A stretch of DNA of 64,000 bases from a phage. The DNA is taken from the sequence record PZ386972.1; one strand, 5' to 3'. A program made the position numbers and the translations under genes. Below the pieces are notes generated by a model. It was not told where the DNA came from. It saw only the letters and a list, made by a program, of their open reading frames with translations, and did not search any database. Position 1 is the stretch's first letter. The number at the start of each line of letters is the position of its first letter. Positions 17,963 through 44,973 of the stretch are shown in pieces.

Positions 17963-19837
17963 TTATTTAGCTCGAATATCCTGATGTTTCACCCTACCCA
18001 TAACTTCATGTTGTTTGCCGGGGTTAAATGGACGAGCACCCGGATTTCCAAGATACCCACAAACTCGACGAGTTACTTCAAGAGTTTCTGGGTCATGATT
18101 ACCACAGATAGGGCACTTAAATCCATCTTCGGATGCTATTGTTTCACCTAAGAATCCACATTTACCACAAGAATCTACTGGAGTATTAATACCGAAGTAA
18201 TGAACCTTACTAGCAGCATAATTAATAACCCATTCGAGTGCATCTGGGAATCGTTTCATATCCGGTAGTTCTACATAGGAAATACACCCACCAGAAGCAA
18301 TCGGAGTAAAGTTAGATTCATAATCAAATTTCACGTTAGGAGCAACTTTACGTTCTACATCAAGGTGATGCGAGTTAGTATAGTATCCTTTGGACAGAAT
18401 ATCTTCATGCTCCGGGAAATATTCACGATCTAGACGACAAAAACGGTCACATAGGGACTCTGATGGTGTAGCATACAGGCTATAACCTAACTTAGTTTCT
18501 TCCTTCTTCTGATCTACCCTATCCCGCATGTACTGCAGTACACGCTGAACAAACTTGATGCAGGTCTCGGACATTGTGTCTATATCTTTGCCAAACATGA
18601 ACTGTAGCATTTCATGGCAACCAATATACCCTAGAGATACAGAAGCACGGTTATAGAAATGATCGAATACGTATTCATCAGGCTCCAAGCGCAGTCCAAA
18701 GGCTCCTGACATATAGAGGATGGGTGCAGCTTTAGCTTGAATGTATTTTAAGCGATCAACTCTCCACTCCAATGCTTTTAACGCTGTATCCACACGTAGC
18801 TCAAGCAAATCAAAGAATAGGTCAATATTTCCTTCAGCTTCGATAGCAATTCTAGGCAAGTTTACAGAAACAACACCTAAGTTATTACGACCGGCAGTTT
18901 CACCATCTTCTGTAGCAGCTAGGAATGAACGGCAGCCCATAGAAACTTTGTAGTCTCCAGTAACTTCTACAACTTTGTCATAGCTGATATAATCTGGATA
19001 CATACGTTCAGCAGTACATTTCATAGCTAACTTCTTGATGTCATAATTAACATCTCCTGGTTTCATATTTACGCCATCACGAAGCACAAATACCAGTTTC
19101 GGGAAGATAGCTGTACGTTTATTGATACCTAAACCATCCATGCGTACTTTCAGTATTGCTTTCTGTACTAGACGTGCTTCCCAAGAAGTTCCTAGACCAA
19201 AACCAAAGGTAATAAATGGACTCTGACCATTAGAGTTGAACATCGTATTGATTTCATACTCTAGACCCTGACAAGCATCATAGACTTCTTTTTCAGTCAT
19301 CTCCGTAGCCATTACTGATGCTTTGGCTTCATCCTTAGTCCAACGTTTTGCAAAGGCATGATTTTTGTCATAGGATTTACGAACATAAGGAGCTAATACC
19401 TCATCTAATCGGTCTACAGAAGTACCACCATACTGATGGGAGCTAACCTGTGTGATAATCTGAGCTGTAATAGCCGCCGCAGTAGTAATAGAGTTTGGAG
19501 TACTAATTTCAGCATTACCAACCTTCATACCATTCTTCAACATATCTTCCAGAGCTACCAGACAACAATTAGTCATGCCTAATGCAGCATAATCAGCATC
19601 ATGGAAATGAATATCCCCAATCATATGAGCATTTCGAATCTGAATTGGCATTTCTTCTAGAATCAGATACTTACTCAATTCACCTGCAAGCATATCCCTC
19701 TGTGTAGGGAAACGTTCTGAGGGTTTATTGGCATTATTAAACAGCAGCTCTTCATCTGCTGACCCTTCGATAATCTCTTTGCAGTTTCTAATTAACGCCT
19801 GCATTTCTTTATACTTTAGTTCTTCATTGCGATTCAT
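17963..19837 (-). CDS. nrdD: anaerobic ribonucleoside-triphosphate reductase (class III, glycyl radical)
   Basis: 624 aa; C-terminal zinc ribbon CGKCGF...CPICG and glycyl-radical motif RRVCGYLG. Confidence 0.85.
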   Translation of the reverse strand: MNRNEELKYKEMQALIRNCKEIIEGSADEELLFNNANKPSERFPTQRDMLAGELSKYLILEEMPIQIRNAHMIGDIHFHDADYAALGMTNCCLVALEDMLKNGMKVGNAEISTPNSITTAAAITAQIITQVSSHQYGGTSVDRLDEVLAPYVRKSYDKNHAFAKRWTKDEAKASVMATEMTEKEVYDACQGLEYEINTMFNSNGQSPFITFGFGLGTSWEARLVQKAILKVRMDGLGINKRTAIFPKLVFVLRDGVNMKPGDVNYDIKKLAMKCTAERMYPDYISYDKVVEVTGDYKVSMGCRSFLAATEDGETAGRNNLGVVSVNLPRIAIEAEGNIDLFFDLLELRVDTALKALEWRVDRLKYIQAKAAPILYMSGAFGLRLEPDEYVFDHFYNRASVSLGYIGCHEMLQFMFGKDIDTMSETCIKFVQRVLQYMRDRVDQKKEETKLGYSLYATPSESLCDRFCRLDREYFPEHEDILSKGYYTNSHHLDVERKVAPNVKFDYESNFTPIASGGCISYVELPDMKRFPDALEWVINYAASKVHYFGINTPVDSCGKCGFLGETIASEDGFKCPICGNHDPETLEVTRRVCGYLGNPGARPFNPGKQHEVMGRVKHQDIRAK

Positions 19838-19866
19838 TATACTCTCCTTCTCTAACTAAGACTACT

Positions 19867-19895
19867 ATTATAACTCATTCGAGGGCGGATGTCAA
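19867..19895 (-). promoter_or_regulatory. consensus sigma70-type promoter for nrdD (TTGACA, 17 bp, TATAAT)
   Basis: Plus strand ATTATA 19867-19872 and TGTCAA 19890-19895. Confidence 0.6.
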
Positions 19896-19946
19896 CAATA
19901 TTTTACTATAAAGTTCTGTAACATGATCTGAGTCAAAAAATTTTAT

Positions 19947-19975
19947 TTGCCAATTTCTATTAAAAATTGTATAAT
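19947..19975 (+). promoter_or_regulatory. early promoter (TTGCCA, 17 bp, TATAAT) followed by palindromic CGTGCACG element
   Basis: -35 at 19947-19952, -10 at 19970-19975. Confidence 0.5.
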
Positions 19976-20087
19976 CACGCACTCGTGCACGCGATATAAA
20001 ATGATTATCTAGTATCACACATCTCACGTTAAAAGCAAGCAAATTTTTTATTTAAATGCAATATCATAGGCTTATTTAAAATTGTAG

Positions 20088-20116
20088 TTGCTTTTTACTG
20101 TATATATTGGTATAAT
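20088..20116 (+). promoter_or_regulatory. early promoter (TTGCTT, 17 bp, TATAAT)
   Basis: -35 at 20088-20093, -10 at 20111-20116. Confidence 0.55.
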
Positions 20117-20189
20117 ATATTTGTAAGTTGATAAACAAGATCTTTTTGTTGATCCTCTGTTAGCGAAGTACACTATAGGAGTGTTATTT

Positions 20190-20942
20190 ATGGGAAAAGC
20201 ACGTCAAAAAAGAGAGAACCGCAATGGTTCAAGAAAGCGTGGCAACAAATATGAGAATAACGTAATTCAGGCTGATTTTTCTAATGATTACGCTAACCCA
20301 GTTGCTAAATCCCTAGTAGGTAAAAACCGCGAGCAAAAATCATATATCAATATGATCAAGAACAACACAGTGACTGTGGGTATCGGTGAGCCAGGTACTG
20401 GTAAAACCTTTATTCCGTCCGTTCTTGCAGCTCAGGAACTCGTAGACATTCACTCAGATATTGAGCAAGTGATCCTCGTACGTCCTAATGAACCTCTAGG
20501 TAAGTCTCTTGGTATGCTTCCTGGTGATCTAGCAGAAAAGCTAGAGCCTTGGTTGGAGCCAATAGCTGATGGTATGAAATGGGCCATCGGCGAACATGCC
20601 TATAAGGGATATGTCGAACGTCAGAAAATTAAATTTTTGGCTATCGAACATGCTCGTGGCAGAACTTTCAACAACTCCTATGTAATTGTCGATGAAGCTC
20701 AGAATATTTCCGTTGAGGCAATGATTTGTCTCCTAACTCGTGTAGGACAAGACTGCCGTTTAATTATCTGCGGAGATATAGCTCAGAAAGACATTAAAGG
20801 TGACTCAGGTCTAGCACTCCTTATGGAAGTCTATGAGAAATACGAAAATGCCCCATTCTCAATGATCGAATTGATTGATAACGTTCGTTCTGTTGAGTCT
20901 AAAGCATTCTATGACATCTTTAAAGACATGGGGAAGGTGTAA
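20190..20942 (+). CDS. phoH: PhoH-like ATPase
   Basis: Walker A GEPGTGKTF; Walker B VIVDEAQN; start set to ATG 20190 with AGGAG RBS. Confidence 0.75.
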   Translation: MGKARQKRENRNGSRKRGNKYENNVIQADFSNDYANPVAKSLVGKNREQKSYINMIKNNTVTVGIGEPGTGKTFIPSVLAAQELVDIHSDIEQVILVRPNEPLGKSLGMLPGDLAEKLEPWLEPIADGMKWAIGEHAYKGYVERQKIKFLAIEHARGRTFNNSYVIVDEAQNISVEAMICLLTRVGQDCRLIICGDIAQKDIKGDSGLALLMEVYEKYENAPFSMIELIDNVRSVESKAFYDIFKDMGKV

Positions 20943-20943
20943 T

Positions 20944-21165: not shown

Positions 21166-21307
21166 GCTAAAAAGCTAGACTGGTAATATACAGGGCCTGG
21201 GTATGAAAATACTCGGGCCTTTTCTATCAGAAAATTTTATTTGCCTAATGACCGATAATAAAGTAGAATATTCCTTAAATCCTGATAACTATAAAAAGGA
21301 AAGCCAA

Positions 21308-23638
21308 ATGAGCCATCGCATTGAAAAAGTAATTAAACGTGACGGTACTGTAGAAGACTTTGCTCCTGAAAAACTCAATGGTTGGGCAGAGTATGGTTGC
21401 AAAACAGTTGATGTAAGTTGGTCCGCCATTACTATGGCTGCTCAAAAAACGCTACCTAAAGGGGTTGTAGATTCCGACACTCTGATGGACGCATTAATTA
21501 AAGCTGCTGAAAGTCTTATCAAAGATAACCCAGCATACGATGTGCCAGCAAAGGAATTACGTCTTGCGCAAATGCGTAAACGCCTTTATGACTCTTTCGA
21601 ACCGCCTTCTCTACGCTTCTTCCATGACCACATGGTTAGCGTAGGTGCATGGGAAGACATGAGTGCATGGATTACCGATGAGCAATTTGAAGCTCTGAAT
21701 CAGGTTATCGACCATGATCGTGACCGTCTTTTTACTAGTGGTGGGCTGAAGCAGTTCTTTGATAAGTATTCCCGTCGTAACATAGCCACTGGTGAAATTT
21801 ACGAAACTCCGCAGTTTGCCTACATGGGTATGGCAATGGCGATGCTATCTCAACCTAACTGGACAATTCTAGATGCAATCGACCTCTACAACGCAATGTC
21901 ACTCCACAAAATCAACGTTCCTACGCCGCCACTGGTTGGTCTGCGCTCTAGTGACCGTGGATTTGCTAGTTGCTGCCTCGTGGATTCCACTGACACGTTG
22001 GATTCAATCGACACCGCCGAGCACATCGTCTTCAAAATGGTCGCAGCCAGAGCGGGAATCGGGTATCATCTTGAAAGCCGATCAATTGCTGATCCGGTGC
22101 GAAATGGGGCATTCCCGCATTCCGGAAAACTGCCATATTATCGACACATTGACCGCTCAGTAAAGGCCAATACTCAGCAAACTCGTGGTGGTTCTGCTAC
22201 AGTATCTTATCCATACTTCGACCCTGAAATCATTCAATTGATGCAGGTTAAGCAACAACGTGCTACAGATGAGAATAAAATCGATAAGATGGATTATTCT
22301 CTGAGCTTTAACAACCTTTTGTTAAAACGTTATCTTAAAAACGAAGATATTACGCTAATGTCATACTTCTATGCTCCAGAAGTTCATGAAGCGTTTTATA
22401 GTGATGACGAGGCTAAATTTGAAGAAATCTACGTGGCAGCGGAGAAACGTGTGGCATCTCTTACAAAGATCGACCACGAAGGAAAAACAGTTCCTGCAGC
22501 TCCTAAAGTCTCTGCAAAAGAAATCCTAGATACTTGGCTACGTATCCGAATGGAAACAGGACGTATGTATGCTCACCACATTGGAGAATCTAATCGTCAC
22601 GGTAACTTCCTTGATCCGATCCGTATGACAAACCTTTGTGTTGAAATTACTCAGCCTACACGCCCGTTCCATCACATTACAGAGCTGTACAAGACAAAAG
22701 AGCAGCTTGATCAAATGAAGCCGGAGGATATTGGTGAAGTATCTCTGTGTAACTTAGGTGGTGTTGTACTTGGACGCATGGAATCTCTGGCTGAGTGGGA
22801 AAAAACTTGCTACATCCTTCTGAAATTTGTTGACACAATTATTGAAATTCAGGATTATCCGTTCCCAACTATGGAATATACGGCTAAGAAACGTCGTAAT
22901 GTTGGTATTGGCCTGATGAACGCAGCGGGTGCAATGGCAGCAGAAGGTCTGGCTTACGAAGGTATTGAAGCCCGTAACTGGATTCACCGTGAGGCTGAAA
23001 AACTGTCTTACTTCCTGCATAAAGCCTCTGTACGCCTGGCTAAAGAACAGGGTGCATGTGAGTGGTTTGATCGTACTAAACCATCTAAAGGAATTCTAGT
23101 AATCGACACGTATAAGAAAACTGTTGATGAACTGGTATCCGTAGGTCTAGAAATGGATTGGGAGTCTCTACGTGCAGATATTCTGAAATATGGTATGCGT
23201 AACTCTGTTCTGACTGCTCAGATGCCGGGAGAAAGTTCTTCTGTTCTGCTAGGAGTTACTAACTCTATTGAACCGCCTCGTAAGATTGTATCTATCAAGG
23301 GTAGTGCAGTGAATAAAGTAATTGCAATTGCTCCGGGTGCAACCGATTGGGAAACGTTAATGAGCTATAAACTGGCTTATGATGTAGATCGTATCGAGTG
23401 GATCAAATGGGTAGCAACTATGCAAAAATTCTTCAGTCAGTCTATCAGTACGAATATGTACTATGACTACACCAAGTTTGAGAATGAAATCATTCCTGGC
23501 CCAGTAGTAGTTCGTGATTTCATGACTGCTGTTAAGTATGGGTGGAAAACTTTCTACTATGCAAACTTCAATACCGCAAATGGTGGAGGTGCTGGAGAAG
23601 AAGCAGCCGGTTGTGCATCCGGTGGTTGTACTATTTAA
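21308..23638 (+). CDS. nrdA: ribonucleotide reductase class Ia large subunit
   Basis: ATP-cone start MSHRIEKVIKRDGTVEDF; active site NLCVEI; C-terminal Cys pair; start moved from 21203 to ATG 21308 with RBS. Confidence 0.85.
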   Translation: MSHRIEKVIKRDGTVEDFAPEKLNGWAEYGCKTVDVSWSAITMAAQKTLPKGVVDSDTLMDALIKAAESLIKDNPAYDVPAKELRLAQMRKRLYDSFEPPSLRFFHDHMVSVGAWEDMSAWITDEQFEALNQVIDHDRDRLFTSGGLKQFFDKYSRRNIATGEIYETPQFAYMGMAMAMLSQPNWTILDAIDLYNAMSLHKINVPTPPLVGLRSSDRGFASCCLVDSTDTLDSIDTAEHIVFKMVAARAGIGYHLESRSIADPVRNGAFPHSGKLPYYRHIDRSVKANTQQTRGGSATVSYPYFDPEIIQLMQVKQQRATDENKIDKMDYSLSFNNLLLKRYLKNEDITLMSYFYAPEVHEAFYSDDEAKFEEIYVAAEKRVASLTKIDHEGKTVPAAPKVSAKEILDTWLRIRMETGRMYAHHIGESNRHGNFLDPIRMTNLCVEITQPTRPFHHITELYKTKEQLDQMKPEDIGEVSLCNLGGVVLGRMESLAEWEKTCYILLKFVDTIIEIQDYPFPTMEYTAKKRRNVGIGLMNAAGAMAAEGLAYEGIEARNWIHREAEKLSYFLHKASVRLAKEQGACEWFDRTKPSKGILVIDTYKKTVDELVSVGLEMDWESLRADILKYGMRNSVLTAQMPGESSSVLLGVTNSIEPPRKIVSIKGSAVNKVIAIAPGATDWETLMSYKLAYDVDRIEWIKWVATMQKFFSQSISTNMYYDYTKFENEIIPGPVVVRDFMTAVKYGWKTFYYANFNTANGGGAGEEAAGCASGGCTI

Positions 23639-23647
23639 TAAAAACAA

Positions 23648-23670
23648 GGAGATCTTCGGGTCTCCTTTTT
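23648..23670 (+). terminator. rho-independent terminator after nrdA
   Basis: Hairpin GGAGATCTTCGGGTCTCC followed by TTTTT. Confidence 0.6.
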
Positions 23671-23684
23671 CTTTGAAATTTTAC

Positions 23685-23713
23685 TTGCTAATCGCTACCA
23701 GATTTGCTATAAT
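23685..23713 (+). promoter_or_regulatory. early promoter (TTGCTA, 17 bp, TATAAT)
   Basis: -35 at 23685-23690, -10 at 23708-23713. Confidence 0.55.
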
Positions 23714-23719
23714 ATTTAT

Positions 23720-24217
23720 ATGAAATTAACACAGAGTAGATTAAAAGAGCTAATCTCCTATGATCCTGAAACTGGTGAATTTACCTGGCTTCCAAGAAAA
23801 AATTTAGCAAAGCATTTATGGAACGCTAAAGCAGGAACCTACGATAAGCTAGGGTATCTTCGTATAAAAGTGGAAGGAGTTCAATACTTAGCTCATCGCC
23901 TAGCCTTCTTGTATATGACTGGAGAAATACCAGAAGGAAAAATTGACCATAAAGATACTAATCCGTCCAATTGTGCCTGGAATAATCTACGTGAAGCCAC
24001 GAGTTCCCAAAATTCTATGAACTCATGCGCAAGAGTGGATAACCAGCTTGGAATGAAAAATATTCGTGTAAAAGGCAATTCATTTCAGGTTAGGATAGGC
24101 AAAGACGGTAAATCTTATACAAAAACTTTAAAAACCATAGAAGAAGCTATAGAGTGGAGAGATACCAAACTACTAGAACTTCATGGGGACTTTGCAAACA
24201 ACGGAGAAGCTAAATGA
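23720..24217 (+). CDS. HNH homing-endonuclease-like protein
   Basis: 165 aa; HRLAFLYMTGE...IDHKDTNPSNCAWNNLREATSSQN matches the HNH signature; inserted between nrdA and nrdB. Confidence 0.7.
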   Translation: MKLTQSRLKELISYDPETGEFTWLPRKNLAKHLWNAKAGTYDKLGYLRIKVEGVQYLAHRLAFLYMTGEIPEGKIDHKDTNPSNCAWNNLREATSSQNSMNSCARVDNQLGMKNIRVKGNSFQVRIGKDGKSYTKTLKTIEEAIEWRDTKLLELHGDFANNGEAK

Positions 24218-37920: not shown

Positions 37921-37928
37921 AATTCTGC

Positions 37929-38005: not shown

Positions 38006-38011
38006 AAATTT

Positions 38012-38086: not shown

Positions 38087-38088
38087 AA

Positions 38089-38376: not shown

Positions 38377-38397
38377 TTTCCAAAAGTTCTGTATAAT
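38369..38397 (+). promoter_or_regulatory. early promoter
   Basis: TTGCTT 38369-38374, TATAAT 38392-38397. Confidence 0.55.
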
Positions 38398-38425
38398 AAT
38401 TACATAAATTGAACTGGAGAAGCAA

Positions 38426-38713: not shown

Positions 38714-38718
38714 TAAAC

Positions 38719-38794
38719 CGACCGTTGGCTGAATGGCTTAGGCGAAGGATTGCAAATCCTTTTTATGTGAGTTCAAATCTCATGCGGTCGTCCA
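38719..38794 (+). tRNA. tRNA-Cys (anticodon GCA)
   Basis: Acceptor CGACCGT/GCGGTCG; anticodon stem AAGGA/TCCTT with loop TTGCAAA; T-arm GTGAGTTCAAATCTCAT; CCA. Confidence 0.6.
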
Positions 38795-38796
38795 AT

Positions 38797-38936
38797 TTGC
38801 TGAAAGAATTGTTAAATCAATTCAGGCACGCGTAGGAACACTGTCTCCGTAATTGAAAGATGAGACACGGTTTGGAGAGGTATGCCGCTACACGCTACGG
38901 TGCTAACTCCGTCTAGGTGAAAATCCTAGTCAGCAA
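38797..38936 (+). ncRNA. structured RNA (~140 nt) with terminal pairing and T-arm-like hairpin, not a canonical tRNA
   Basis: 5' TTGCTGA pairs with 3' TCAGCAA; hairpins GTCTC...GAGAC and CTAGGTGAAAATCCTAG. Confidence 0.3.
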
Positions 38937-38946
38937 TATAAATTTA

Positions 38947-39029
38947 GGGTCGTTAGCCAAGCGGTTTGGCGGTGGACTGTTAATCCATGTCGAAAGACAA
39001 CGTAGGTTCGAATCCTACACGGCCCGCCA
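38947..39029 (+). tRNA. tRNA with GUU anticodon (Asn-like) and an atypical 13-nt variable stem-loop
   Basis: Acceptor GGGTCGT/ACGGCCC; anticodon stem GTGGA/TCCAT with loop CTGTTAA; variable GTCGAAAGACAAC; CCA. Confidence 0.45.
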
Positions 39030-39131
39030 AATTCTGTGTAGAGTTAAGTAAACCGGTAGCCAACCAGCTATCATTGCTGACATCGAATTCAGCCACAGAT
39101 ACCATTTTCATTAATAACTGAGGAAACAAGC

Positions 39132-39317
39132 ATGTCCAAGAATGTAATTGCACAGTTAGAAGTTCATCGTGATAACACAGCTAATAACATTAAGTGCCGA
39201 CAAAAAGATATTGAAGCTCAAAAGGCTGATCTTTTAATGAGTATTCGAGAGCTTAATGTACGAAAAGAGTTTCTTAAAGAACTTAATGCAGCTATTGAAA
39301 AACTCAAAGCTGAGTAA
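39132..39317 (+). CDS. hypothetical protein (61 aa)
   Basis: ORF track; AGGAAACAAGC RBS. Confidence 0.35.
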   Translation: MSKNVIAQLEVHRDNTANNIKCRQKDIEAQKADLLMSIRELNVRKEFLKELNAAIEKLKAE

Positions 39318-39326
39318 ATGAATTAT

Positions 39327-39403
39327 GCGACCGGGGCTGGCTTGGTAATGGTACTCCCCTGTCACGGGAGGGAATGTGGGTTCGAATCCCATCGGTCGCG
39401 CCA
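39327..39403 (+). tRNA. tRNA-Asp (anticodon GUC)
   Basis: Acceptor GCGACCG/CGGTCGC; anticodon stem CTCCC/GGGAG with loop CTGTCAC; CCA. Confidence 0.6.
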
Positions 39404-39420
39404 AATAAGGTAGGTTAGCT

Positions 39421-39579
39421 ATGGAACGTAGGGAGTTTACTCCGGAAGAGATAGAGCAGATAAAAGAATCTGCTATGAAAAATGCTAGAATATCTCTGTC
39501 ACTGGAAGGTATCATTATAAGTGATGTAAACTTTGAAAAAATCAAAGCCATAGCTGATGAACTGGAAAAAGTAATTTAA
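39421..39579 (+). CDS. hypothetical small protein (52 aa), below the ORF-track cutoff
   Basis: ATG after AAGGTAGG; fills the gap between two tRNAs. Confidence 0.3.
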   Translation: MERREFTPEEIEQIKESAMKNARISLSLEGIIISDVNFEKIKAIADELEKVI

Positions 39580-39580
39580 T

Positions 39581-39656
39581 ACATCCATAGCTCAATGGTT
39601 AGAGCTACCGCCTCTTAAGCGGAGGGTTCTAGGTTCAAGTCCTAGTGGGTGTACCA
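39581..39656 (+). tRNA. tRNA-Lys (anticodon CUU)
   Basis: Acceptor ACATCCA/TGGGTGT; D-arm GCTC/GAGC; anticodon loop CTCTTAA; T-arm CTAGGTTCAAGTCCTAG; CCA. Confidence 0.55.
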
Positions 39657-39682
39657 AACTAAACTAGCACGAGAAATATGCT

Positions 39683-40030
39683 ATGATTAATGCTAAAGAA
39701 GAGTTGTTACTTGCCCTAAAGAATACTAAGTCTGAAGTTAAGTGTATTAAGATAGAATTCGGTTATTATGGGAACAAAGAAGTTTGGATATTACCCGTAG
39801 GTTATACAGAAAAAGATATTGAAGATTTTCTAAATAATCTAGACTTCAAATATGATTCTGGTTTCGGTGGACAATTGCTTTACGGTAACGTATGGTTTAC
39901 TGATGGAACTTGGTTAGAGCGTGGTGAATATGATGGTTCTGAATGGTGGGAGTATAAGACTACACCAGCAATCCCAGAAGAATGCCGAACAATTAATGGT
40001 GAAGTAGATCGTACTTTACTATTAAATTAA
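39683..40030 (+). CDS. hypothetical protein (115 aa)
   Basis: ORF track. Confidence 0.45.
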   Translation: MINAKEELLLALKNTKSEVKCIKIEFGYYGNKEVWILPVGYTEKDIEDFLNNLDFKYDSGFGGQLLYGNVWFTDGTWLERGEYDGSEWWEYKTTPAIPEECRTINGEVDRTLLLN

Positions 40031-40038
40031 CAAAATTT

Positions 40039-40277
40039 CAGTGCAGAACACGGAGCTAGCAATTCGGAAGTGCTGACTCATGATAGGCTGCCTATGTACT
40101 TGCGAAGCGGTCGTGTCCAAGACTCGGACTCTTGCACTGAAAACAATCAAACATTCTAGCGTGGTTGATGGGGAAACCAGCTTGGCTAGGGCAGAAGCTC
40201 GTTCGATTCGAGTGAAAGAATGGTTCTCGTAAGTCCGCACAAGTGATAACAGGTTCGAGTCCTGTCTAGAATGACAC
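40039..40277 (+). ncRNA. composite structured RNA region with closing stems and two T-arm-like hairpins, unresolved
   Basis: CAGTGCAG (40039-46) pairs CTGCACTG (40132-39); ATTCTAG (40153-59) pairs CTAGAAT (40267-73); T-arm-like hairpins at 40197-40213 and 40250-40266. Confidence 0.3.
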
Positions 40278-40422
40278 TATAAAGTTTACTTATTATGTAG
40301 GTTCCGATAGATCGGCGGGTCTATTCTGGCATTTAAGAGAGGTCTCGCAAACTTCTTTGTCAGCCGTGGGGTTGATAGCCTCCAGGTGGCCTACACAATA
40401 AGTAAATTTATTAAAAATTCAT

Positions 40423-40451
40423 TTGCTATTCTGCTTAATTATCTGTATAAT
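40423..40451 (+). promoter_or_regulatory. early promoter
   Basis: TTGCTA 40423-40428, TATAAT 40446-40451. Confidence 0.6.
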
Positions 40452-40481
40452 ATATTTTATAAAGTGAGTTAACAAAATTAA

Positions 40482-40557
40482 CAGTGCGTAGCGCAGTTGG
40501 TAGCGTGGGAGCCTTGGATGCTTCGGGTCGCAGGTTCGAGTCCTGCCGCACTGACCA
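40482..40557 (+). tRNA. tRNA-Pro (anticodon UGG)
   Basis: Acceptor CAGTGCG/CGCACTG; anticodon stem GGAGC/GCTTC with loop CTTGGAT; T-arm GCAGGTTCGAGTCCTGC; CCA. Confidence 0.65.
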
Positions 40558-40563
40558 AACAAT

Positions 40564-40641
40564 TGCGGGTTAGATCTCTGGTAGAGATCGCTAGTCTCAT
40601 AAGCTAGAAAGAGGTAGGTTCGATTCCTGCACCCGCTTCCA
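40564..40641 (+). tRNA. tRNA with CAU anticodon and a 1:72 mismatch (initiator- or Ile2-like)
   Basis: D-arm GATC/GATC; anticodon stem CTAGT/GCTAG with loop CTCATAA; T-arm with TTCGATT loop; CCA. Confidence 0.55.
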
Positions 40642-40661
40642 TTTTAATAGAGGATTTCGAA

Positions 40662-40829
40662 ATGAAAGTATTTCGATTAGTAGTAAGTGACAAACGTTTA
40701 GGTAAGAATACCTCAAAATCCTTACTTGCTCATTATGGAAAAGATGAGAAAGAAGTAATGGCGGAGTTTGGGATTAATCACCCTTACTTGAAAGTTCACT
40801 CTATTAAAGAAGTATATAATGGTTACTAA
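40662..40829 (+). CDS. hypothetical small protein (55 aa), below the ORF-track cutoff
   Basis: ATG after GAGGA; between two tRNAs. Confidence 0.3.
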   Translation: MKVFRLVVSDKRLGKNTSKSLLAHYGKDEKEVMAEFGINHPYLKVHSIKEVYNGY

Positions 40830-40830
40830 T

Positions 40831-40909
40831 AGATCGCTAGCTCAATAGGTTTAGTAGCATCCGACTTTTAATCGGAAGGTTCTGGGTTCGAGTCCCAGGC
40901 GATCTACCA
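40831..40909 (+). tRNA. tRNA-Lys (anticodon UUU)
   Basis: Acceptor AGATCGC/GCGATCT; anticodon stem TCCGA/TCGGA with loop CTTTTAA; T-arm CTGGGTTCGAGTCCCAG; CCA. Confidence 0.55.
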
Positions 40910-40927
40910 ATTTCAAGAAAAACGCAG

Positions 40928-40956
40928 TTGCTTGATGCTTAATTTCTTGTTATAAT
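40928..40956 (+). promoter_or_regulatory. early promoter followed by a 9-bp-stem leader hairpin
   Basis: TTGCTT 40928-40933, TATAAT 40951-40956; hairpin TGATGAGGA-TTT-TCCTCATCA at 40969-40989. Confidence 0.55.
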
Positions 40957-41194
40957 ATTTATATAAATTGATGAGGATTTCTCCTCATCATAGTTCACTA
41001 AGGTATTAGCTCGACCTAGGACTGGCTGCCAAAAAGCACGATCCCTACGATTCGGGAGAAGTTCTAGATTAGTCCACTAGATTCAGCGGCAACTGAATAG
41101 TGTATCGGGTTTGCGAGATGACGCGGTTCCTTCCGCTCGAAGCGAAGGTGCTGTAGTTACGCCGAGCTAATAGCCTTAGTAAACTAAAGAATTT

Positions 41195-41273
41195 GGGGAA
41201 TGGGTCTGCATGGAGTGGACACCTCGCTTGCACCGAGGACATCAGAACGGTTCGATTCCGTTATTCTCCACCA
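41195..41273 (+). tRNA. tRNA-Ala (anticodon UGC)
   Basis: Acceptor GGGGAAT/ATTCTCC; anticodon stem CCTCG/CGAGG with loop CTTGCAC; T-arm AACGGTTCGATTCCGTT; CCA. Confidence 0.6.
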
Positions 41274-41278
41274 AATAC

Positions 41279-41355
41279 GCGTGATTGATGGAATTGGCAT
41301 ACATACCGTCCTTAGAAGTCGGGTTTTGAGGGTTCGAATCCCTTGTCACGCACCA
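41279..41355 (+). tRNA. tRNA, anticodon uncertain (hand fold gives UAG)
   Basis: Acceptor GCGTGAT/GTCACGC; D-arm ATG/CAT; T-arm GAGGGTTCGAATCCCTT; CCA; anticodon stem has a U-U mismatch. Confidence 0.4.
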
Positions 41356-41440
41356 AATTTGATGGTCAGAGTAAATTAAACCTACTATCTCGGTTGAGCT
41401 GTTTTAATGGGTTCGAATCCCAGCGAGGCGTAACTGCCTG
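41356..41440 (+). ncRNA. orphan T-arm-like hairpin plus adjacent hairpin; possible tRNA remnant or small RNA
   Basis: TGGGTTCGAATCCCA at 41408-41422 and AGGCGTAACTGCCT at 41427-41440; no acceptor partner found. Confidence 0.25.
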
Positions 41441-41467
41441 GCGTGATAGAGGCATCATCTTATTATT

Positions 41468-41558
41468 GGAAGAGCAAATCGAATTGGCGACGAAAACCGC
41501 TTGGAAAGTGGCTGACTGGTAAAACGGCTTGAGAGTTCAAATCTCTCCTCTTCCGCCA
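41468..41558 (+). tRNA. tRNA-Ser (anticodon GGA), long variable arm
   Basis: Acceptor GGAAGAG/CTCTTCC; anticodon loop TTGGAAA; T-arm GAGAGTTCAAATCTCTC; CCA; 91 nt. Confidence 0.55.
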
Positions 41559-41570
41559 AACAATTTATAT

Positions 41571-41665
41571 GGTAGGTCAATCCAATGGCTGGCGCTGGAC
41601 TCCGACTTGAAATCGGTTGATCGTAGTGATACGGTGTAAGGGTTCGATCCCCTTACCTACCTCCA
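41571..41665 (+). tRNA. tRNA-Ser (anticodon UGA), long variable arm
   Basis: Acceptor GGTAGGT/ACCTACC; anticodon loop CTTGAAA; variable stem CGTA/TACG; T-arm AAGGGTTCGATCCCCTT; CCA; 95 nt. Confidence 0.55.
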
Positions 41666-41670
41666 AGTCT

Positions 41671-41802
41671 TGAAGTATGCCGGAATCGGTAGACGGGGCT
41701 GCCTAAAAGGTTTATAGGGAACATCCACTCCCTACAACATACCTCATAAAGCGGCTGAGATAAATGGTCTATCTCGTGAAGGTTCAAGTCCTTCTGCTTC
41801 TT
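41671..41802 (+). ncRNA. structured region with terminal T-arm (GAAGGTTCAAGTCCTTC) and internal hairpins, unresolved
   Basis: Hairpins TAGGGA...TCCCTA (41714-41734) and GAGATA...TATCTC (41757-41775); T-arm 41778-41794; no CCA. Confidence 0.25.
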
Positions 41803-42031
41803 GATACATCTATGGCTCAAAGTGTAACGGTGCTATTTGATGCTCTTAGTAAGACTTTCCCGACATGCGTTCGGGAGTAAGCTGCTAAGGCTAGAATAGA
41901 AGAGTTTCTGAGAGCCGCCACAATTGAAAATTCGTACTCGTCTTGAGCTGCGTGCAATAGGAGATAACTTGATTAGTATTCTAGAACATGCTAATTGAGG
42001 ATGGTTTCGCTAACCCTGCGAGTTTTCAATT

Positions 42032-42108
42032 GTGGCTATATCATAATTGGTTAATGATCCTGATTGTGAATCAGGCCTATGTGGATTCGAATTCCACTAG
42101 CCACCCCA
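42032..42108 (+). tRNA. tRNA-His (anticodon GUG)
   Basis: Acceptor GTGGCTA/TAGCCAC; D-arm TCAT/ATGA; anticodon stem CCTGA/TCAGG with loop TTGTGAA; T-arm GTGGATTCGAATTCCAC; CCA. Confidence 0.65.
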
Positions 42109-42133
42109 AATTAACTTAAATAGGAAATAAAAT

Positions 42134-42331
42134 ATGGCTGATTTCTGCAAACAATGCTCCATTGATATGTGGGGCAGAGATACTGGTGATCTTTCTGGTT
42201 TGATTACAGAAGCTGAGGTCAAAGAAGGTTATGGTGCAGTTGTGATTTGCGAAGGATGCGGAGTTATTCGAGTAGATCATGAAGGCAAACGTTTAGAAGA
42301 ACAGGAAAACTTAGGAGAAACAAATGAGTAA
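42134..42331 (+). CDS. hypothetical Cys-containing protein (65 aa)
   Basis: ORF track; RBS. Confidence 0.4.
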   Translation: MADFCKQCSIDMWGRDTGDLSGLITEAEVKEGYGAVVICEGCGVIRVDHEGKRLEEQENLGETNE

Positions 42332-42560
42332 TGCTTTAATTAGTGAAATTATGTTAACACGTCTTGCAGAACTGCAAACTCTTCGAGATGAATCTCAGAA
42401 TAACTTAGCCTACCATAAACAGATGGTAGATACTCTTACTACTCGTATTGATACTTACGAGCGTGATATTGCAGCATTACAAGCTCTTTTCTCTGTATCA
42501 GCACCAGATACGTTAGAACAGCCTGCTGTATCTCAGCCAGTAGAAACAGCATCTAGCTAA
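42324..42560 (+). CDS. hypothetical protein (78 aa)
   Basis: ORF track; overlapping start and stop. Confidence 0.4.
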   Translation: MSNALISEIMLTRLAELQTLRDESQNNLAYHKQMVDTLTTRIDTYERDIAALQALFSVSAPDTLEQPAVSQPVETASS

Positions 42561-42569
42561 TAGCATTCT

Positions 42570-42645
42570 TGGGATGTAGATCAATTGGCAGATCGTCGGC
42601 CTCTGACTCCGAAGGTTCCACGTTCGATCCGTGGCATCCCAGCCA
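42570..42645 (+). tRNA. tRNA-Gln (anticodon CUG)
   Basis: U1-A72 acceptor TGGGATG/CATCCCA; D-arm GATC/GATC; anticodon loop CTCTGAC; T-arm CCACGTTCGATCCGTGG; CCA. Confidence 0.6.
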
Positions 42646-42651
42646 AACAAT

Positions 42652-42727
42652 TGGAGAGTAGTGTAACGGTTAGCACAACGGCCTTTGACTCCGTTAATGG
42701 TAGGTTCGATTCCTCCTTCTCCAGCCA
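42652..42727 (+). tRNA. tRNA-Gln (anticodon UUG)
   Basis: U1-A72 acceptor TGGAGAG/TTCTCCA; D-arm GTGT/GCAC; anticodon loop CTTTGAC; CCA. Confidence 0.6.
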
Positions 42728-42735
42728 AGTAATAA

Positions 42736-42811
42736 GCGGTTAAGCACACGGGTTGTGTCGCAGGCCTTCCAAGCCTCGCTGAGTAGGGTTCGATTCCCTC
42801 TAGCCGCTCCA
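42736..42811 (+). tRNA. tRNA-Gly (anticodon UCC)
   Basis: Acceptor GCGGTTA/TAGCCGC; anticodon stem AGGC/GCCT with loop CTTCCAA; T-loop TTCGATT; CCA. Confidence 0.55.
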
Positions 42812-42827
42812 ACTTTAAGGAAACATT

Positions 42828-43079
42828 ATGCACGTTTTTGAGTTTCGTAATAAAAGTACCGATAAACGAGTTATTGTTATTGGAGAAACATACCGAGCAT
42901 ACGAACAAACTGACGGCTCTGTTATCCTAAACGATGAGAAAGGAGGTTTTAGCTTTTATCCAGAAGAACCTTATGAAGAGTTTCGAAAACAATTTAACCT
43001 AGACTGGAGAAAGCATTTAAACACTGTTGCTTCATCTGTAGTATTGCCAACTACCAGTACTGTACTCTCTAATGGCTGA
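42828..43079 (+). CDS. hypothetical protein (83 aa)
   Basis: ORF track; AAGGAAACA RBS. Confidence 0.4.
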   Translation: MHVFEFRNKSTDKRVIVIGETYRAYEQTDGSVILNDEKGGFSFYPEEPYEEFRKQFNLDWRKHLNTVASSVVLPTTSTVLSNG

Positions 43080-43236
43080 TAACCTAAAAGTCAAGATCGA
43101 TAAACAAAAGAAACGTGTAGAAGTAGAGATTGGTGAAGAACGTGTAGCCTTCACCTTTGAATTTCTACAACAAATGGCAATGGCGGTTATGACTGATAAG
43201 TCTCCTGTTATTGAAAAAGAAATCCCGTTGAAATAA
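43072..43236 (+). CDS. hypothetical small protein (54 aa), below the ORF-track cutoff
   Basis: ATG overlapping the upstream stop region. Confidence 0.3.
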   Translation: MADNLKVKIDKQKKRVEVEIGEERVAFTFEFLQQMAMAVMTDKSPVIEKEIPLK

Positions 43237-43244
43237 CGGGTTCT

Positions 43245-43331
43245 GCTGGGTTGGCAGAATGGTTGAATGCACCTGATTTGTAATCAGGAGGAGTAATCCC
43301 GTTGCAGGTTCGAATCCTGTGCCCAGCACCA
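43245..43331 (+). tRNA. tRNA with UGU anticodon (Thr-like) and an atypical 15-nt variable region
   Basis: Acceptor GCTGGGT/GCCCAGC; anticodon stem CCTGA/TCAGG with loop TTTGTAA; T-arm GCAGGTTCGAATCCTGT; CCA. Confidence 0.5.
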
Positions 43332-43345
43332 ACTTAAGGACTATT

Positions 43346-43513
43346 ATGTTTAAATTATTAGTAGTTATCTGGTATAGTCAATCAAATAGAGCGAATACCT
43401 CCCACGTTATAGACTTTAATACTAAAAATGAAGCTGAAAAAGCATATTCTAATTTAATAGAACGTAATAAAGAATCTCGTAGTATAGTTTATGAAGTGAC
43501 TAAACTTTATTAA
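43346..43513 (+). CDS. hypothetical protein (55 aa)
   Basis: ORF track 43319..43513, start moved to ATG 43346 after AAGGA so it no longer overlaps the tRNA. Confidence 0.35.
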   Translation: MFKLLVVIWYSQSNRANTSHVIDFNTKNEAEKAYSNLIERNKESRSIVYEVTKLY

Positions 43514-43521
43514 AAATTCAT

Positions 43522-43550
43522 TTGCTTTCTCTCTTATTTATTGTTATAAT
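43522..43550 (+). promoter_or_regulatory. early promoter
   Basis: TTGCTT 43522-43527, TATAAT 43545-43550. Confidence 0.6.
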
Positions 43551-43580
43551 ATTTATATAAATTAATGAGAGGGAAGCCAA

Positions 43581-43874
43581 ATGAAACGTTATCTTTCTGT
43601 TGTGTTCCAAACTGGTGGTCAACGCTATACCTATGAATTTCCTGGCTCTTGGAAGATCAAAGAGGGTGATCAAGTAGTAGTGTTAACACCGCGTGAGGGT
43701 TTCAAGGTAGTAACGGTTAAGCAAGTATTTCCAAAAGAGCATGAACCAGCTAAAGGCATTCGCTATAAGATGATTCATGGTGTAGTTCGTCAAGTACCAC
43801 GAGCGGAAGTCGAAATCAAAGTAGATAAAGATGGTAGACTTAAATATACCTCTTGCTTAGATGAGCTGCTATAA
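43581..43874 (+). CDS. hypothetical protein (97 aa)
   Basis: ORF track; GAGGGAAG RBS. Confidence 0.45.
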   Translation: MKRYLSVVFQTGGQRYTYEFPGSWKIKEGDQVVVLTPREGFKVVTVKQVFPKEHEPAKGIRYKMIHGVVRQVPRAEVEIKVDKDGRLKYTSCLDELL

Positions 43875-44080
43875 TGAGGATTACTTTCACAGAAAAGATC
43901 ATGAGTAATGGTGTTATGATCATTACTGCATGGGATGGCAATCAGTGGTGTAGTGTTTCAGGTATTAAGCCTGAAGAACAAACACTAGAAAATATCTCAA
44001 AGATTAAGCGAAGAATGGCAGAACGTGCACGACTTCCAGGTGCACCTAGAAATGGCAAACGTTCTGCTGCAAAATGTTAA
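43874..44080 (+). CDS. hypothetical protein (68 aa)
   Basis: ORF track. Confidence 0.45.
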   Translation: MRITFTEKIMSNGVMIITAWDGNQWCSVSGIKPEEQTLENISKIKRRMAERARLPGAPRNGKRSAAKC

Positions 44081-44081
44081 T

Positions 44082-44158
44082 GCTTCGGTAGCTTAGCGAT
44101 CTAAAGCACTCGGCTGATAACCGAGAGATCGGGGGTTTAAATCCCTCCCGGAGTACCA
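44082..44158 (+). tRNA. tRNA-Ile (anticodon GAU)
   Basis: Acceptor GCTTCGG/CCGGAGT; D-arm GCTT/AAGC; anticodon stem CTCGG/CCGAG with loop CTGATAA; T-loop TTTAAAT; CCA. Confidence 0.6.
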
Positions 44159-44244
44159 AATTTAGGAATTAAGACTATGCGTCCAGGAAAGTTTAAAAAA
44201 GCTAATTGGTCTAAAGAGTATAAAGAATACTTACTTAGTCTAGT

Positions 44245-44320
44245 AAAACATAACAGTTAGTTGGCAGAGTGGTTATGCACCTCCTTCATACGGAGCGACT
44301 ACAGTGGTTCAAATCCACTA
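44245..44320 (+). tRNA. tRNA with CAU anticodon (third CAU tRNA in the cluster)
   Basis: Acceptor AGTTAGT/ACTAACT; anticodon loop TTCATAC; T-arm AGTGGTTCAAATCCACT; CCA. Confidence 0.55.
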
Positions 44321-44367
44321 CTAACTACCATTAAAAGAGCTAGAGATAGCTAAATTTAGGAGCAGCT

Positions 44368-44562
44368 ATGTTAACAATTAAAATAATGTCAGCCAAGAAT
44401 GGTGAACATATCCATACAGGCAAAAGTGTGAGCTTTAATCCTAGAAATAAAAGATTGGCTATAGTTGGAGTAGACCAAGCCATCTTTTTAAAAGAAGATG
44501 AAGTAGCATATGTCATGAACCAAACTGGTAAGACAGTTTCCGTATACTATGGAAAAGTATAA
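44368..44562 (+). CDS. hypothetical protein (64 aa)
   Basis: ORF track; GGAG RBS. Confidence 0.4.
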   Translation: MLTIKIMSAKNGEHIHTGKSVSFNPRNKRLAIVGVDQAIFLKEDEVAYVMNQTGKTVSVYYGKV

Positions 44563-44604
44563 AGAATAAATAGCTGAGCCAAATTCTAACATCTGGGAGA
44601 TCTA

Positions 44605-44973
44605 ATGAAAGCATATCAAAATCTTAAATCTGGCGTAATTAACCTTGTTCATGAAAATCAGATTATTCAGCTATACTCCGACAACGGTGAACTTAAACAG
44701 AAAGTTCTAGTTGAAGATCTAGAAGGTATCACACCACAATTCGATCCCGAAGCCTTCCGTGAAGTCAAAGTGGAAGTCGCCCCTCAAATCGAAGGTGGTC
44801 AGCACCTAAATGTCAATGTGTTAAGCCGTGATCAGCTTTTGGATGCGCAGAAACATCCTGAAAAATATCCTCAGTTGACCATCCGTGTCTCTGGCTACGC
44901 TGTTCGATTTAACGCACTGACTCGTGAACAACAGAACGACGTTATTAGTCGTACATTTACTCAGGCGATGTAA
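44605..44973 (+). CDS. grcA: GrcA/YfiD-like autonomous glycyl radical cofactor
   Basis: 122 aa; [11 protein letters not shown]...[21 protein letters not shown]...[11 protein letters not shown] closely matches the GrcA family and its RVSGY glycyl-radical motif. Confidence 0.75.

What the first reader, a model, noticed from the sequence alone, without database searches (positions are those of the whole stretch)
17963..44973. Glycyl-radical pair NrdD plus GrcA-like spare part with no NrdG activase in the window
The phage encodes anaerobic RNR NrdD (RVCGY motif) and, 25 kb away, a 122-aa GrcA/YfiD homolog whose C-terminus duplicates the glycyl-radical loop (RVSGY). No radical-SAM activase with a CxxxCxxC motif is found here. 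The GrcA-like protein might repair oxygen-cleaved NrdD, or serve another glycyl radical enzyme, relying on a host activase.
Basis: partly seen in the sequence, partly recalled or inferred. Interest (0 to 1): 0.5.

Follow-up and report, generated by a model that had tools for sequence, protein, structure and literature searches.

The report
Phage NrdD and GrcA, no activase
A T5-like phage carries an oxygen-sensitive anaerobic ribonucleotide reductase and, 25 kb away, a small "spare-part" glycyl-radical protein that fits the host's pyruvate formate-lyase, with no activating enzyme of its own; this is real but already recorded for T5-like and T4 phages.

Summary
The window is a T5-like phage (Tequintavirus, about 98% nt identity to BB1, SP15 and T5_ev212). 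ORF 17963-19837(-) is an intact class III ribonucleotide reductase NrdD. ORF 44605-44973(+) is a 122-aa GrcA/YfiD-type glycyl-radical protein. No NrdG- or PflA-like radical-SAM activase is encoded in the window, in 20-kb flanks of two relatives, or in the complete SP15 genome.

The two proteins are not a repair pair. The GrcA-like C-terminal 62 residues are 79% identical to E. coli PflB, as close as E. coli's own GrcA. They show no detectable similarity to the phage NrdD. The protein is a full-length homologue (52%) of T4 vs.6/Y06I, which was shown in 2001 to be activated by host PFL-activase and to rescue oxygen-cleaved PFL. Identical proteins are already annotated as GrcA or PFL in many T5-like genomes. 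nrdD without nrdG in T5 and its relatives was published in 2013. So this is already known.

One lead goes beyond the finding. In Aeromonas phage 65, the Klebsiella jumbo phage RaK2 and Aeromonas phage BUCT695, grcA sits inside the nrdD(/nrdG) operon. That suggests a functional coupling. My inference is that rescued PFL supplies formate, the reductant of this NrdD type.

The parts
17963..19837 (-). nrdD, class III (anaerobic) ribonucleoside-triphosphate reductase, 624 aa. It lacks the first ~110 residues of E. coli NrdD. AAGGAG ribosome-binding site upstream.
   Evidence: PF13597 E 1.5e-172 and PF01228. NF006732 and TIGR02487 above cut-off. 54% identity to E. coli NrdD, aligning from E. coli residue 113. 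PDB T4 NrdD 1h78 E 1.5e-177. Conserved TNCC (89), MGCRS (300), NNLGV (318), and Zn-ribbon CGKCG (557) and CPICG (575).
18056..18058 (-). Codon of Gly594, the predicted glycyl-radical residue of NrdD (RRVCGYLG).
   Evidence: It aligns with the RRVCGYLG motif of E. coli NrdD. That this motif holds the radical glycine, numbered G681, rests on the title of Sun 1996 as listed and on my own knowledge.
44605..44973 (+). grcA-like gene (T4 vs.6/Y06I family), 122 aa. Stand-alone PFL-type glycyl-radical domain. GGGAG ribosome-binding site 8 nt upstream. It lies just past the last tRNA of the tRNA cluster.
   Evidence: PF01228 E 3.7e-18. phrog_1209 over full length, E 8e-48. PDB 6owr (E. coli GrcA) E 1.4e-30 and PFL 1h16 E 5e-27. 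Comparisons. tRNA map.
44893..44895 (+). Codon of Gly97, the predicted radical glycine of the GrcA-like protein ([12 protein letters not shown], identical to PflB around G734).

Best explanation
The phage encodes two separate glycyl-radical proteins, each of which depends on a different pre-existing host activase. (1) NrdD is the phage's own anaerobic ribonucleotide reductase. It makes dNTPs when oxygen is too low for the phage class Ia enzyme (NrdAB, 21203-25359). Its Gly594 radical must be installed by host NrdG. (2) The 122-aa protein is a phage version of the 'spare-part' protein GrcA/YfiD. Host PFL-activase (PflA) puts a radical on Gly97. The activated domain then docks onto host pyruvate formate-lyase whose own C-terminal radical domain has been cut off by oxygen, and restores pyruvate -> acetyl-CoA + formate. 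So the phage brings only the parts that oxygen destroys irreversibly and reuses the host's catalytic activases. The two genes are probably linked through metabolism, not repair. PFL is the main source of formate, and formate is the reductant of the E. coli/T4-type NrdD to which this enzyme belongs. Shown here: the identities, the homologies and the absence of an activase. Taken from the literature: the T4 homologue's activation by PFL-AE and its rescue of PFL, and formate as reductant. Inferred: use of host NrdG, and the formate coupling. The confidence given is for the core statement (two host-activase-dependent radical proteins, with GrcA serving host PFL). The formate coupling alone I put at about 0.45.
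For: Family assignments. The GrcA-like C-terminal 61 aa match E. coli PflB at 49/61 positions, while E. coli GrcA itself matches PflB at 48/61. The same block stays at 47-50/61 in five phage lineages whose NrdDs range from 42 to 58% identity to E. coli NrdD. Full-length homology to T4 vs.6 includes the MKAYQ N-terminus. T4 Y06I and YfiD are activated by PFL-AE and rescue cleaved PFL (PMC8683613, citing Wagner 2001). No activase in the window or in complete relatives. NrdD catalytic Cys, Zn-ribbon and Gly are all conserved. Its radical-loop segment matches E. coli NrdD at 25/31 positions, against 18/31 for T4 NrdD, which has its own NrdG. Formate is the reductant of E. coli, L. lactis and T4 NrdD (subtype NrdD1), and PFL is its source (PMC4493059; PMC4390871). 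grcA is embedded in nrdD(/nrdG) operons in Aeromonas phage 65, RaK2-like jumbo phages and BUCT695. BUCT695, like the T5-likes, has no activase in its whole genome.
Against: No experiment exists for any T5-like NrdD or GrcA. From memory, and not verified here, T4 NrdD needs its own NrdG when expressed in E. coli, so activation of a phage NrdD by host NrdG is not guaranteed. The GrcA-like protein scores below NCBIfam's equivalog cut-off for bacterial GrcA (121 vs 170 bits), because its N-terminal half diverges. In this window the two genes are 25 kb apart and on opposite strands, so linkage here gives no support. The coupling rests on other phages. Operon linkage fits the formate idea but does not prove it.
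Confidence: 0.8

Rival explanations
1. One reading: the GrcA-like protein is a spare part for the phage's own NrdD, replacing its oxygen-cleaved C-terminal radical domain.
For: Both proteins carry PF01228. grcA lies next to nrdD in several other phages. Nolan 2006 guessed at a role for vs.6 in nucleotide metabolism (PMC1524935). PMC8683613 speculates that spare parts for other glycyl radical enzymes may exist.
Against: There is no detectable similarity between the two window proteins beyond RVxGY (E 5.9). The NrdD radical domain follows a Zn-ribbon that GrcA lacks. The GrcA domain stays at 77-82% identity to PflB in every phage lineage while the accompanying NrdDs diverge to 42-58%. That is the reverse of what co-evolution with NrdD would give. 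The T4 homologue demonstrably works on PFL.
Confidence: 0.04
2. The GrcA-like protein rescues host PFL only to keep fermentative energy supply going (acetyl-CoA -> acetate + ATP) during infection in fluctuating oxygen. It has no specific relation to NrdD.
For: This is the role proposed for bacterial GrcA/YfiD. In T4 and the T5-likes, grcA and nrdD are unlinked, 17 and 25 kb apart.
Against: Repeated, independent placement of grcA inside nrdD/nrdG operons is hard to explain without a shared function. The arrangements differ in gene order: nrdD-nrdG-grcA, nrdD-grcA-x-nrdG and nrdD-grcA. Every GrcA-bearing phage lineage I could check as a whole genome also has NrdD.
Confidence: 0.25
3. The phage does encode an unrecognised activase, for example the Cys-motif ORF 45055-45369 next to grcA or another hypothetical protein, so no host activase is needed.
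For: ORF 45055-45369 contains CICSCWMC, a literal CX3CX2C, 82 nt downstream of grcA. It is a conserved real gene.
Against: The conserved part is only about 78 aa, whereas NrdG at 154 aa is among the smallest radical-SAM proteins. It has no significant Pfam or NCBIfam hit even at E 10. It shows no similarity to NrdG or PflA. Homologues occur in Erwinia, Rhizobium and Psychrobacter phages with no grcA context seen. T4 vs.6 has no such neighbour.
Confidence: 0.02
4. Without NrdG the phage NrdD is an inactive relic.
For: No activase in the genome. From memory, T4 NrdD is reported to need its cognate NrdG.
Against: The ORF is intact with every catalytic residue. The region is kept at 80-99% nt identity in 459 T5-like records. 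The radical loop is more host-like than that of T4. An nrdD-only arrangement recurs in other phages (PMC3653736; BUCT695).
Confidence: 0.05

Closest known systems
Bacteriophage T4 vs.6 / Y06I (autonomous glycyl radical cofactor)
   Same: Same family over the full length: 52% identity, same MKAYQ start, 120 vs 122 aa, and an invariant [10 protein letters not shown]...[19 protein letters not shown] block. Both phages also encode NrdD. Y06I is activated by host PFL-AE and reconstitutes O2-cleaved PFL.
   Different: The T4 C-terminal domain is almost identical to E. coli GrcA (59/61). The window protein is equidistant from GrcA (48/61) and PflB (49/61) and ends ...FTQAM like PflB. T4 also encodes NrdG; the T5-like phage does not.
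E. coli GrcA (YfiD), PDB 6owr
   Same: Stand-alone ~14-kDa PFL-type glycyl-radical domain. 74% identity over residues 51-122. Best PDB hit, E 1.4e-30.
   Different: The N-terminal ~50 residues are not alignable by BLAST. The protein falls below the TIGR04365 equivalog cut-off (121 vs 170 bits). It is phage-borne and belongs to the phage clade phrog_1209.
E. coli pyruvate formate-lyase PflB, C-terminal radical domain (residues 699-760)
   Same: 79% identity over 62 aa, including the G734 loop.
   Different: It lacks the ~700-residue catalytic barrel, so it cannot be a lyase itself. GenBank labels such as 'pyruvate formate-lyase', '2-ketobutyrate formate-lyase' or 'acetyltransferase' for this ORF are over-annotations.
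T4 NrdD/NrdG and E. coli NrdD/NrdG class III RNR systems
   Same: The window NrdD is 54% identical to E. coli NrdD and matches T4 NrdD structures at E 1.5e-177. It has the same catalytic Cys, Zn-ribbon and Gly loop. By homology it belongs to the formate-using subtype.
   Different: There is no cognate NrdG in the genome. It lacks the first ~110 residues of E. coli NrdD, where I take the ATP-cone to lie (my own knowledge; the alignment starts at E. coli residue 113). This resembles T4 NrdD.
Reference phage T5 and other Tequintavirus / Epseptimavirus genomes
   Same: Same genes in the same places. T5 itself (121,750 bp, L031) encodes a 95%-identical GrcA-like protein and the NrdD cited in BB1's annotation. 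100%-identical GrcA-like proteins occur in Salmonella phages Th1, HMD-7 and STP-SP2. nrdD with nrdAB and phoH but no nrdG is described for T5, SPC35 and EPS7.
   Different: Nothing of substance. The window lacks a 126-aa hypothetical ORF that some relatives carry just downstream of nrdD.

Membership tests
GrcA/YfiD autonomous glycyl radical cofactor (spare-part protein) | Small stand-alone protein (~120-130 aa) consisting essentially of a glycyl-radical domain | tested here: met
   122 aa. PF01228 covers residues 62-103 and is the only Pfam family matched.
GrcA/YfiD autonomous glycyl radical cofactor (spare-part protein) | Radical domain of the PFL type: RVSGYAV loop and flanks matching PflB 699-760 | tested here: met
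   79% identity to PflB over 62 aa. 49/61 identical, against 48/61 for E. coli GrcA itself.
GrcA/YfiD autonomous glycyl radical cofactor (spare-part protein) | Scores above the curated equivalog cut-off of the bacterial GrcA model (TIGR04365) | tested here: not met
   121 bits against a cut-off of 170. Only residues 50-122 match. It is therefore filed as the phage subfamily (T4 vs.6 / phrog_1209, E 8e-48 over full length), not as a bacterial GrcA equivalog.
GrcA/YfiD autonomous glycyl radical cofactor (spare-part protein) | Activated by PFL-activating enzyme and restores activity to O2-cleaved PFL | not testable with these tools
   Shown for the T4 homologue Y06I and for YfiD (Wagner 2001, via PMC8683613). 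Not shown for any T5-like protein.
Class III ribonucleotide reductase NrdD | NRDD barrel plus C-terminal glycyl-radical domain, above curated cut-offs | tested here: met
   PF13597 575.6 bits and PF01228 81.2 bits. NF006732 843.8 > 657 and TIGR02487 589 > 326.
Class III ribonucleotide reductase NrdD | Thiyl-radical Cys on the finger loop, second active-site Cys, four-Cys Zn-ribbon, RVCGY glycine | tested here: met
   MGCRS (300), TNCC (89), CGKCG (557), CPICG (575) and RVCGY (591) align with the E. coli residues.
Class III ribonucleotide reductase NrdD | Cognate radical-SAM activase NrdG encoded with it | tested here: not met
   No NrdG in the window, in flanks of relatives, or in the complete SP15 genome. 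This concerns the two-gene system, not the identity of NrdD.
Glycyl-radical-enzyme activase (radical SAM: NrdG / PflA) | CX3CX2C cluster motif within a radical-SAM core of at least ~150 aa, with homology to NrdG or PflA | tested here: not met
   The only open-frame CX3CX2C is in the 104-aa ORF 45055-45369. It has no significant Pfam or NCBIfam hit and no similarity to the activases.

The most novel reading that the evidence does not exclude
Phage GrcA (the vs.6 family) is a dedicated accessory of phage class III ribonucleotide reduction, not a general stress protein. By keeping host PFL alive under traces of oxygen it secures formate, the stoichiometric reductant of NrdD. This would explain three things. 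First, grcA has been inserted into nrdD/nrdG operons at least three times: phage 65 has nrdD-nrdG-grcA-nrdC, RaK2-like phages have nrdD-grcA-DUF4326-nrdG, and BUCT695 has nrdD-grcA. Second, every GrcA-bearing lineage checked also carries NrdD. Third, some lineages (T5-like, BUCT695) carry both radical proteins yet no activase. I found no paper in the searchable library that states this link. I could not read Wagner 2001, which may discuss it.
Probability: 0.45. Interest if true: 0.5.

Novelty: already known. Interest (0 to 1): 0.25.

Why it matters
For this window, little: it confirms standard T5-like gene content and corrects mislabels in GenBank ('pyruvate formate-lyase', 'acetyltransferase', 'ribonucleotide reductase subunit') for a GrcA-type spare part. 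More generally, it shows phages carrying the oxygen-destroyed, single-use halves of radical enzyme systems while borrowing the host's reusable activases. If the formate coupling is right, phage GrcA would be an auxiliary metabolic gene that supports anaerobic DNA-precursor synthesis in the gut. That could be tested directly with T4 or T5 mutants.

Tried and rejected
(1) I searched for a hidden activase with a six-frame CX3CX2C regex, and with tblastn and phmmer --max using E. coli NrdG, T4 NrdG and E. coli PflA. I ran the same on 20-kb flanks of BB1 and L6jm, and motif scans plus annotation on the whole SP15 genome. Nothing turned up.

(2) I examined the Cys-motif ORF 45055-45369 as a possible mini-activase and rejected it on size and lack of any family match.

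(3) I tested direct similarity between GrcA-like and NrdD; there is none.

(4) I checked the 126-aa ORF that relatives carry in the spot downstream of nrdD where other phages have nrdG. It has no Pfam match and no CX3CX2C, and it is absent from this window.

(5) I looked for PflA in 80 phage grcA loci; there is none at E 1e-5.

(6) I tried to read Wagner 2001 and Bowman 2019; neither is held.

(7) Loci fetched by accession were not exported to the Python sandbox, so whole-genome checks on SP15 and BUCT695 used the DNA search plus manual frame checks. A genome-wide count of grcA/nrdD co-occurrence over the 1586 GrcA-bearing records was not possible with the tools.

(8) I did not model a GrcA-NrdD or GrcA-PflB complex, because the structure tool takes single chains from the window only.


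Full report
WHAT THE WINDOW IS. The 64-kb window is about 98% identical at the nucleotide level to T5-like phages (Demerecviridae, Tequintavirus): BB1, SP15, T5_ev212, slur09 and many Salmonella phages. Gene order matches the T5 early region. A replication module lies on the minus strand (DNA polymerase, primase, ligase, origin-binding protein, Sir2-like), ending with nrdD. Facing it on the plus strand are phoH, nrdA, nrdB, DHFR and thymidylate synthase. A cluster of 22 tRNA genes follows (33.9-44.3 kb), then a run of small early genes.

CHECK OF THE OBSERVATION. ORF 17963-19837(-) encodes 624 aa ending ...EVTRRVCGYLGNPGARPFNPGKQHEVMGRVKHQDIRAK. It hits PF13597 (NRDD) at E 1.5e-172 and PF01228 at 9.4e-23. 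It passes the NCBIfam NrdD equivalog cut-offs. It is 54% identical to E. coli NrdD, aligning from E. coli residue 113 onward, so it lacks E. coli's first ~110 residues. It matches the T4 NrdD crystal-structure sequence at E 1.5e-177. The finger-loop Cys (MGCRS), the second active-site Cys (TNCC), the four Zn-ribbon cysteines and the radical glycine (Gly594) are all in place.

ORF 44605-44973(+) encodes 122 aa ending ...[38 protein letters not shown]. Its only Pfam match is PF01228, at E 3.7e-18 and 66.4 bits against a cut-off of 22.2. Both genes have good Shine-Dalgarno sequences.

THE MISSING ACTIVASE. A six-frame regex for CX3CX2C finds only one instance in an open frame of meaningful length. 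It is a real, conserved small gene (phrog_4499). Residues 1-78 are conserved in T5-likes and, distantly, in Erwinia, Rhizobium and Psychrobacter phages. But it is 78-104 aa long. Its only Pfam match at E up to 10 is a sub-threshold SinI hit (E 0.24, 11.6 bits against a cut-off of 31.4), and it has no NCBIfam match. It has no similarity to NrdG or PflA, so it cannot be a radical-SAM activase.

tblastn and phmmer --max with E. coli NrdG, T4 NrdG and E. coli PflA against the window gave nothing better than E 0.29. I addressed it in relatives. The complete annotation of SP15 (110,964 bp) has no NrdG. A CX3CX2C DNA scan of SP15 outside the window-equivalent part finds only out-of-frame or antisense matches (frames checked by hand against the annotation). 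The 20 kb beyond each window end in BB1 and L6jm has no activase hit at E<=1 and no credible motif ORF. This agrees with Dwivedi et al. [quoted passage not shown] WHAT THE 122-aa PROTEIN IS. It is not a copy of the NrdD loop. BLASTP of the two window proteins gives E 5.9 and does not align the radical domains. Its last 62 residues are 79% identical to the C-terminus of E. coli PflB (699-760). Residues 51-122 are 74% identical to E. coli GrcA/YfiD. The best solved-structure hits are GrcA (6owr, E 1.4e-30) and PFL.

Over its whole length it is 52% identical to T4 vs.6, including the MKAYQ N-terminus. RefSeq names vs.6 "autonomous glycyl radical cofactor GrcA". To my knowledge vs.6 is the protein called Y06I, and its position between regB and denV fits. 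Y06I and YfiD are the only two experimentally validated spare-part proteins. PFL-activating enzyme installs the glycyl radical on them, and they then restore activity to oxygen-cleaved PFL (Wagner et al. 2001, as summarised in PMC8683613).

A tblastn of the window protein finds homologues in 1586 phage records. These include T5-likes (100% identity in Salmonella phages Th1, HMD-7 and STP-SP2; 99% in T5_ev212, annotated "gcrA putative autonomous glycyl radical cofactor GrcA"), T4-likes (vs.6) and others. T5 itself has a 95%-identical copy (L031). The protein misses NCBIfam's bacterial GrcA equivalog cut-off (121 vs 170 bits) because the N-terminal half is phage-specific. It matches the phage family phrog_1209 end to end.

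HOW IT MOST LIKELY WORKS. The radical domain is as similar to PflB (49/61) as E. coli's own spare part is (48/61). The same block is held at 47-50/61 in T4, T5-like, RaK2-like, phage 65 and BUCT695 proteins. The NrdDs of those phages vary between 42 and 58% identity to E. coli NrdD. The constraint on the small protein is therefore fit to host PflB and PflA, not to the phage NrdD. I conclude that it is activated by host PflA and rescues oxygen-damaged host PFL. This is inferred from 52% homology to a characterised protein.

NrdD must receive its radical from host NrdG. That is an inference. It is supported weakly by the radical-loop segment being more host-like (25/31 identical to E. coli) than that of T4 NrdD (18/31), which has its own NrdG. 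The phage thus encodes the oxygen-destroyed, single-use proteins and borrows the reusable activases. T5-type phages are known to shut off the host early (my own knowledge). If so, this works only in cells that already made NrdG, PflA and PflB, which means cells already adapted to low oxygen.

IS THERE A LINK BETWEEN THE TWO GENES? Not by repair, but probably by metabolism. I collected 79 viral-contig loci that encode relatives of the GrcA-like protein and searched the 10-kb flanks for NrdD, NrdG and PflA.

- In T5-likes and T4-likes nothing lies within 10 kb.
- In Aeromonas phage 65 the order is nrdD / nrdG / grcA (vs.6) / nrdC-like, with overlapping or 1-10-bp junctions (L071).
- In the Klebsiella jumbo phage RaK2 and its relatives K64-1 and Muenster the order is nrdD / grcA / DUF4326 / nrdG (L042-L044).
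- In Aeromonas phage BUCT695 (Grimontviridae) grcA starts 10 bp after nrdD (L011).

BUCT695 has no annotated activase. Its only in-frame CX3CX2C is in a 75-aa HNH endonuclease (frames checked by hand). In all these phages the small protein is PFL-type (...[12 protein letters not shown]...). No PflA homologue was found in any locus.

Formate is the reductant of the E. coli, L. lactis and T4 NrdD subtype (PMC4493059). PFL is the source of formate under anaerobiosis, a connection noted in PMC4390871. The simplest reading is that phage GrcA protects the formate supply for phage NrdD. This is an inference, to which I give about 0.45. I found no statement of it in the searchable literature. Nolan et al. 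[quoted passage not shown] I could not read Wagner 2001.

COMPARISON AND NOVELTY. Every element of the finding as written is already on record: the T5-like NrdD, the GrcA-like ORF, the lack of an NrdG, and the precedent of a phage spare part served by a host activase. The finding is therefore already known, and the interpretation "repairs NrdD" is not supported. The extra lead (grcA inside class III RNR operons in other phages, and a second lineage with both radical proteins and no activase) is modestly interesting and testable. But it lies outside this window and rests on gene order.

VERDICT. Novelty: already known. Interest 0.25.

Noticed in passing
L071 7679-10631 (Aeromonas phage 65); L042 8039-11082 (Klebsiella phage RaK2); L043 and L044; L011 17757-20234 (Aeromonas phage BUCT695): PFL-type grcA (vs.6 family) sits inside class III RNR operons in three other phage lineages, in three different gene orders: nrdD-nrdG-grcA-nrdC, nrdD-grcA-DUF4326-nrdG and nrdD-grcA. 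BUCT695, like the T5-likes, has no activase anywhere in its genome. This suggests coupling between GrcA and NrdD, possibly through formate.
   Followed up: partly
window 45055-45369 (+): Small conserved ORF 82 nt downstream of grcA. It has a basic N-terminus and the motif PCICSCWMCGNPRK, a literal CX3CX2C. It matches phrog_4499 (unknown function). The motif region is conserved as far as Erwinia, Rhizobium and Psychrobacter phages. Relatives annotate it inconsistently, as 35, 58 or 104 aa. It is probably a small metal-binding or nucleic-acid-binding protein, not an activase.
   Followed up: partly
window 17880-17962, between nrdD and ORF 17661-17879; compare L003 4680-5060 (SP15 gp123) and L091 38578-38958 (BB1_0034): Some close relatives (SP15, BB1, T5_ev212, MM-1) carry an extra 126-aa hypothetical ORF immediately downstream of nrdD, the position nrdG occupies in other phages. 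The window and phage LmqsSP1 lack it, a ~377-bp presence/absence difference. The ORF has no Pfam match and no CX3CX2C.
   Followed up: partly
window 16660-17478 (-): A Sir2-family protein (PF02146, E 1.9e-24) lies three small genes downstream of nrdD on the same strand. It is annotated as an NAD-dependent deacetylase in relatives. A second ORF labelled Sir2 in SP15 corresponds to window 15831-16337.
   Followed up: no
window 44605-44973 as annotated in GenBank relatives: The same 122-aa protein is variously labelled 'pyruvate formate-lyase', '2-ketobutyrate formate-lyase', 'formate acetyltransferase', 'putative acetyltransferase-like protein', 'ribonucleotide reductase subunit' or 'hypothetical protein'. 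Only some records call it GrcA. Most of these names are over- or mis-annotations.
   Followed up: yes
window 33932-44330 (+): 22 tRNA genes interleaved with small ORFs, the typical T5-like tRNA region. grcA lies 275 nt after the last one (tRNA-Met, 44255-44330). A thioredoxin-like ORF is at 53010-53300.
   Followed up: no
L068, L070, L074, L077 (IMG/VR 'viral' contigs): Several hits to the GrcA query are the C-termini of full-length glycyl radical enzymes, with stop-to-stop frames of 644 aa (L068) and 765 aa (L070, L074, L077) and no PflA nearby. The 765-aa size fits bacterial tdcE on prophage-flanking or misbinned host DNA (my reading, not tested). They are not phage spare-part genes.
   Followed up: no
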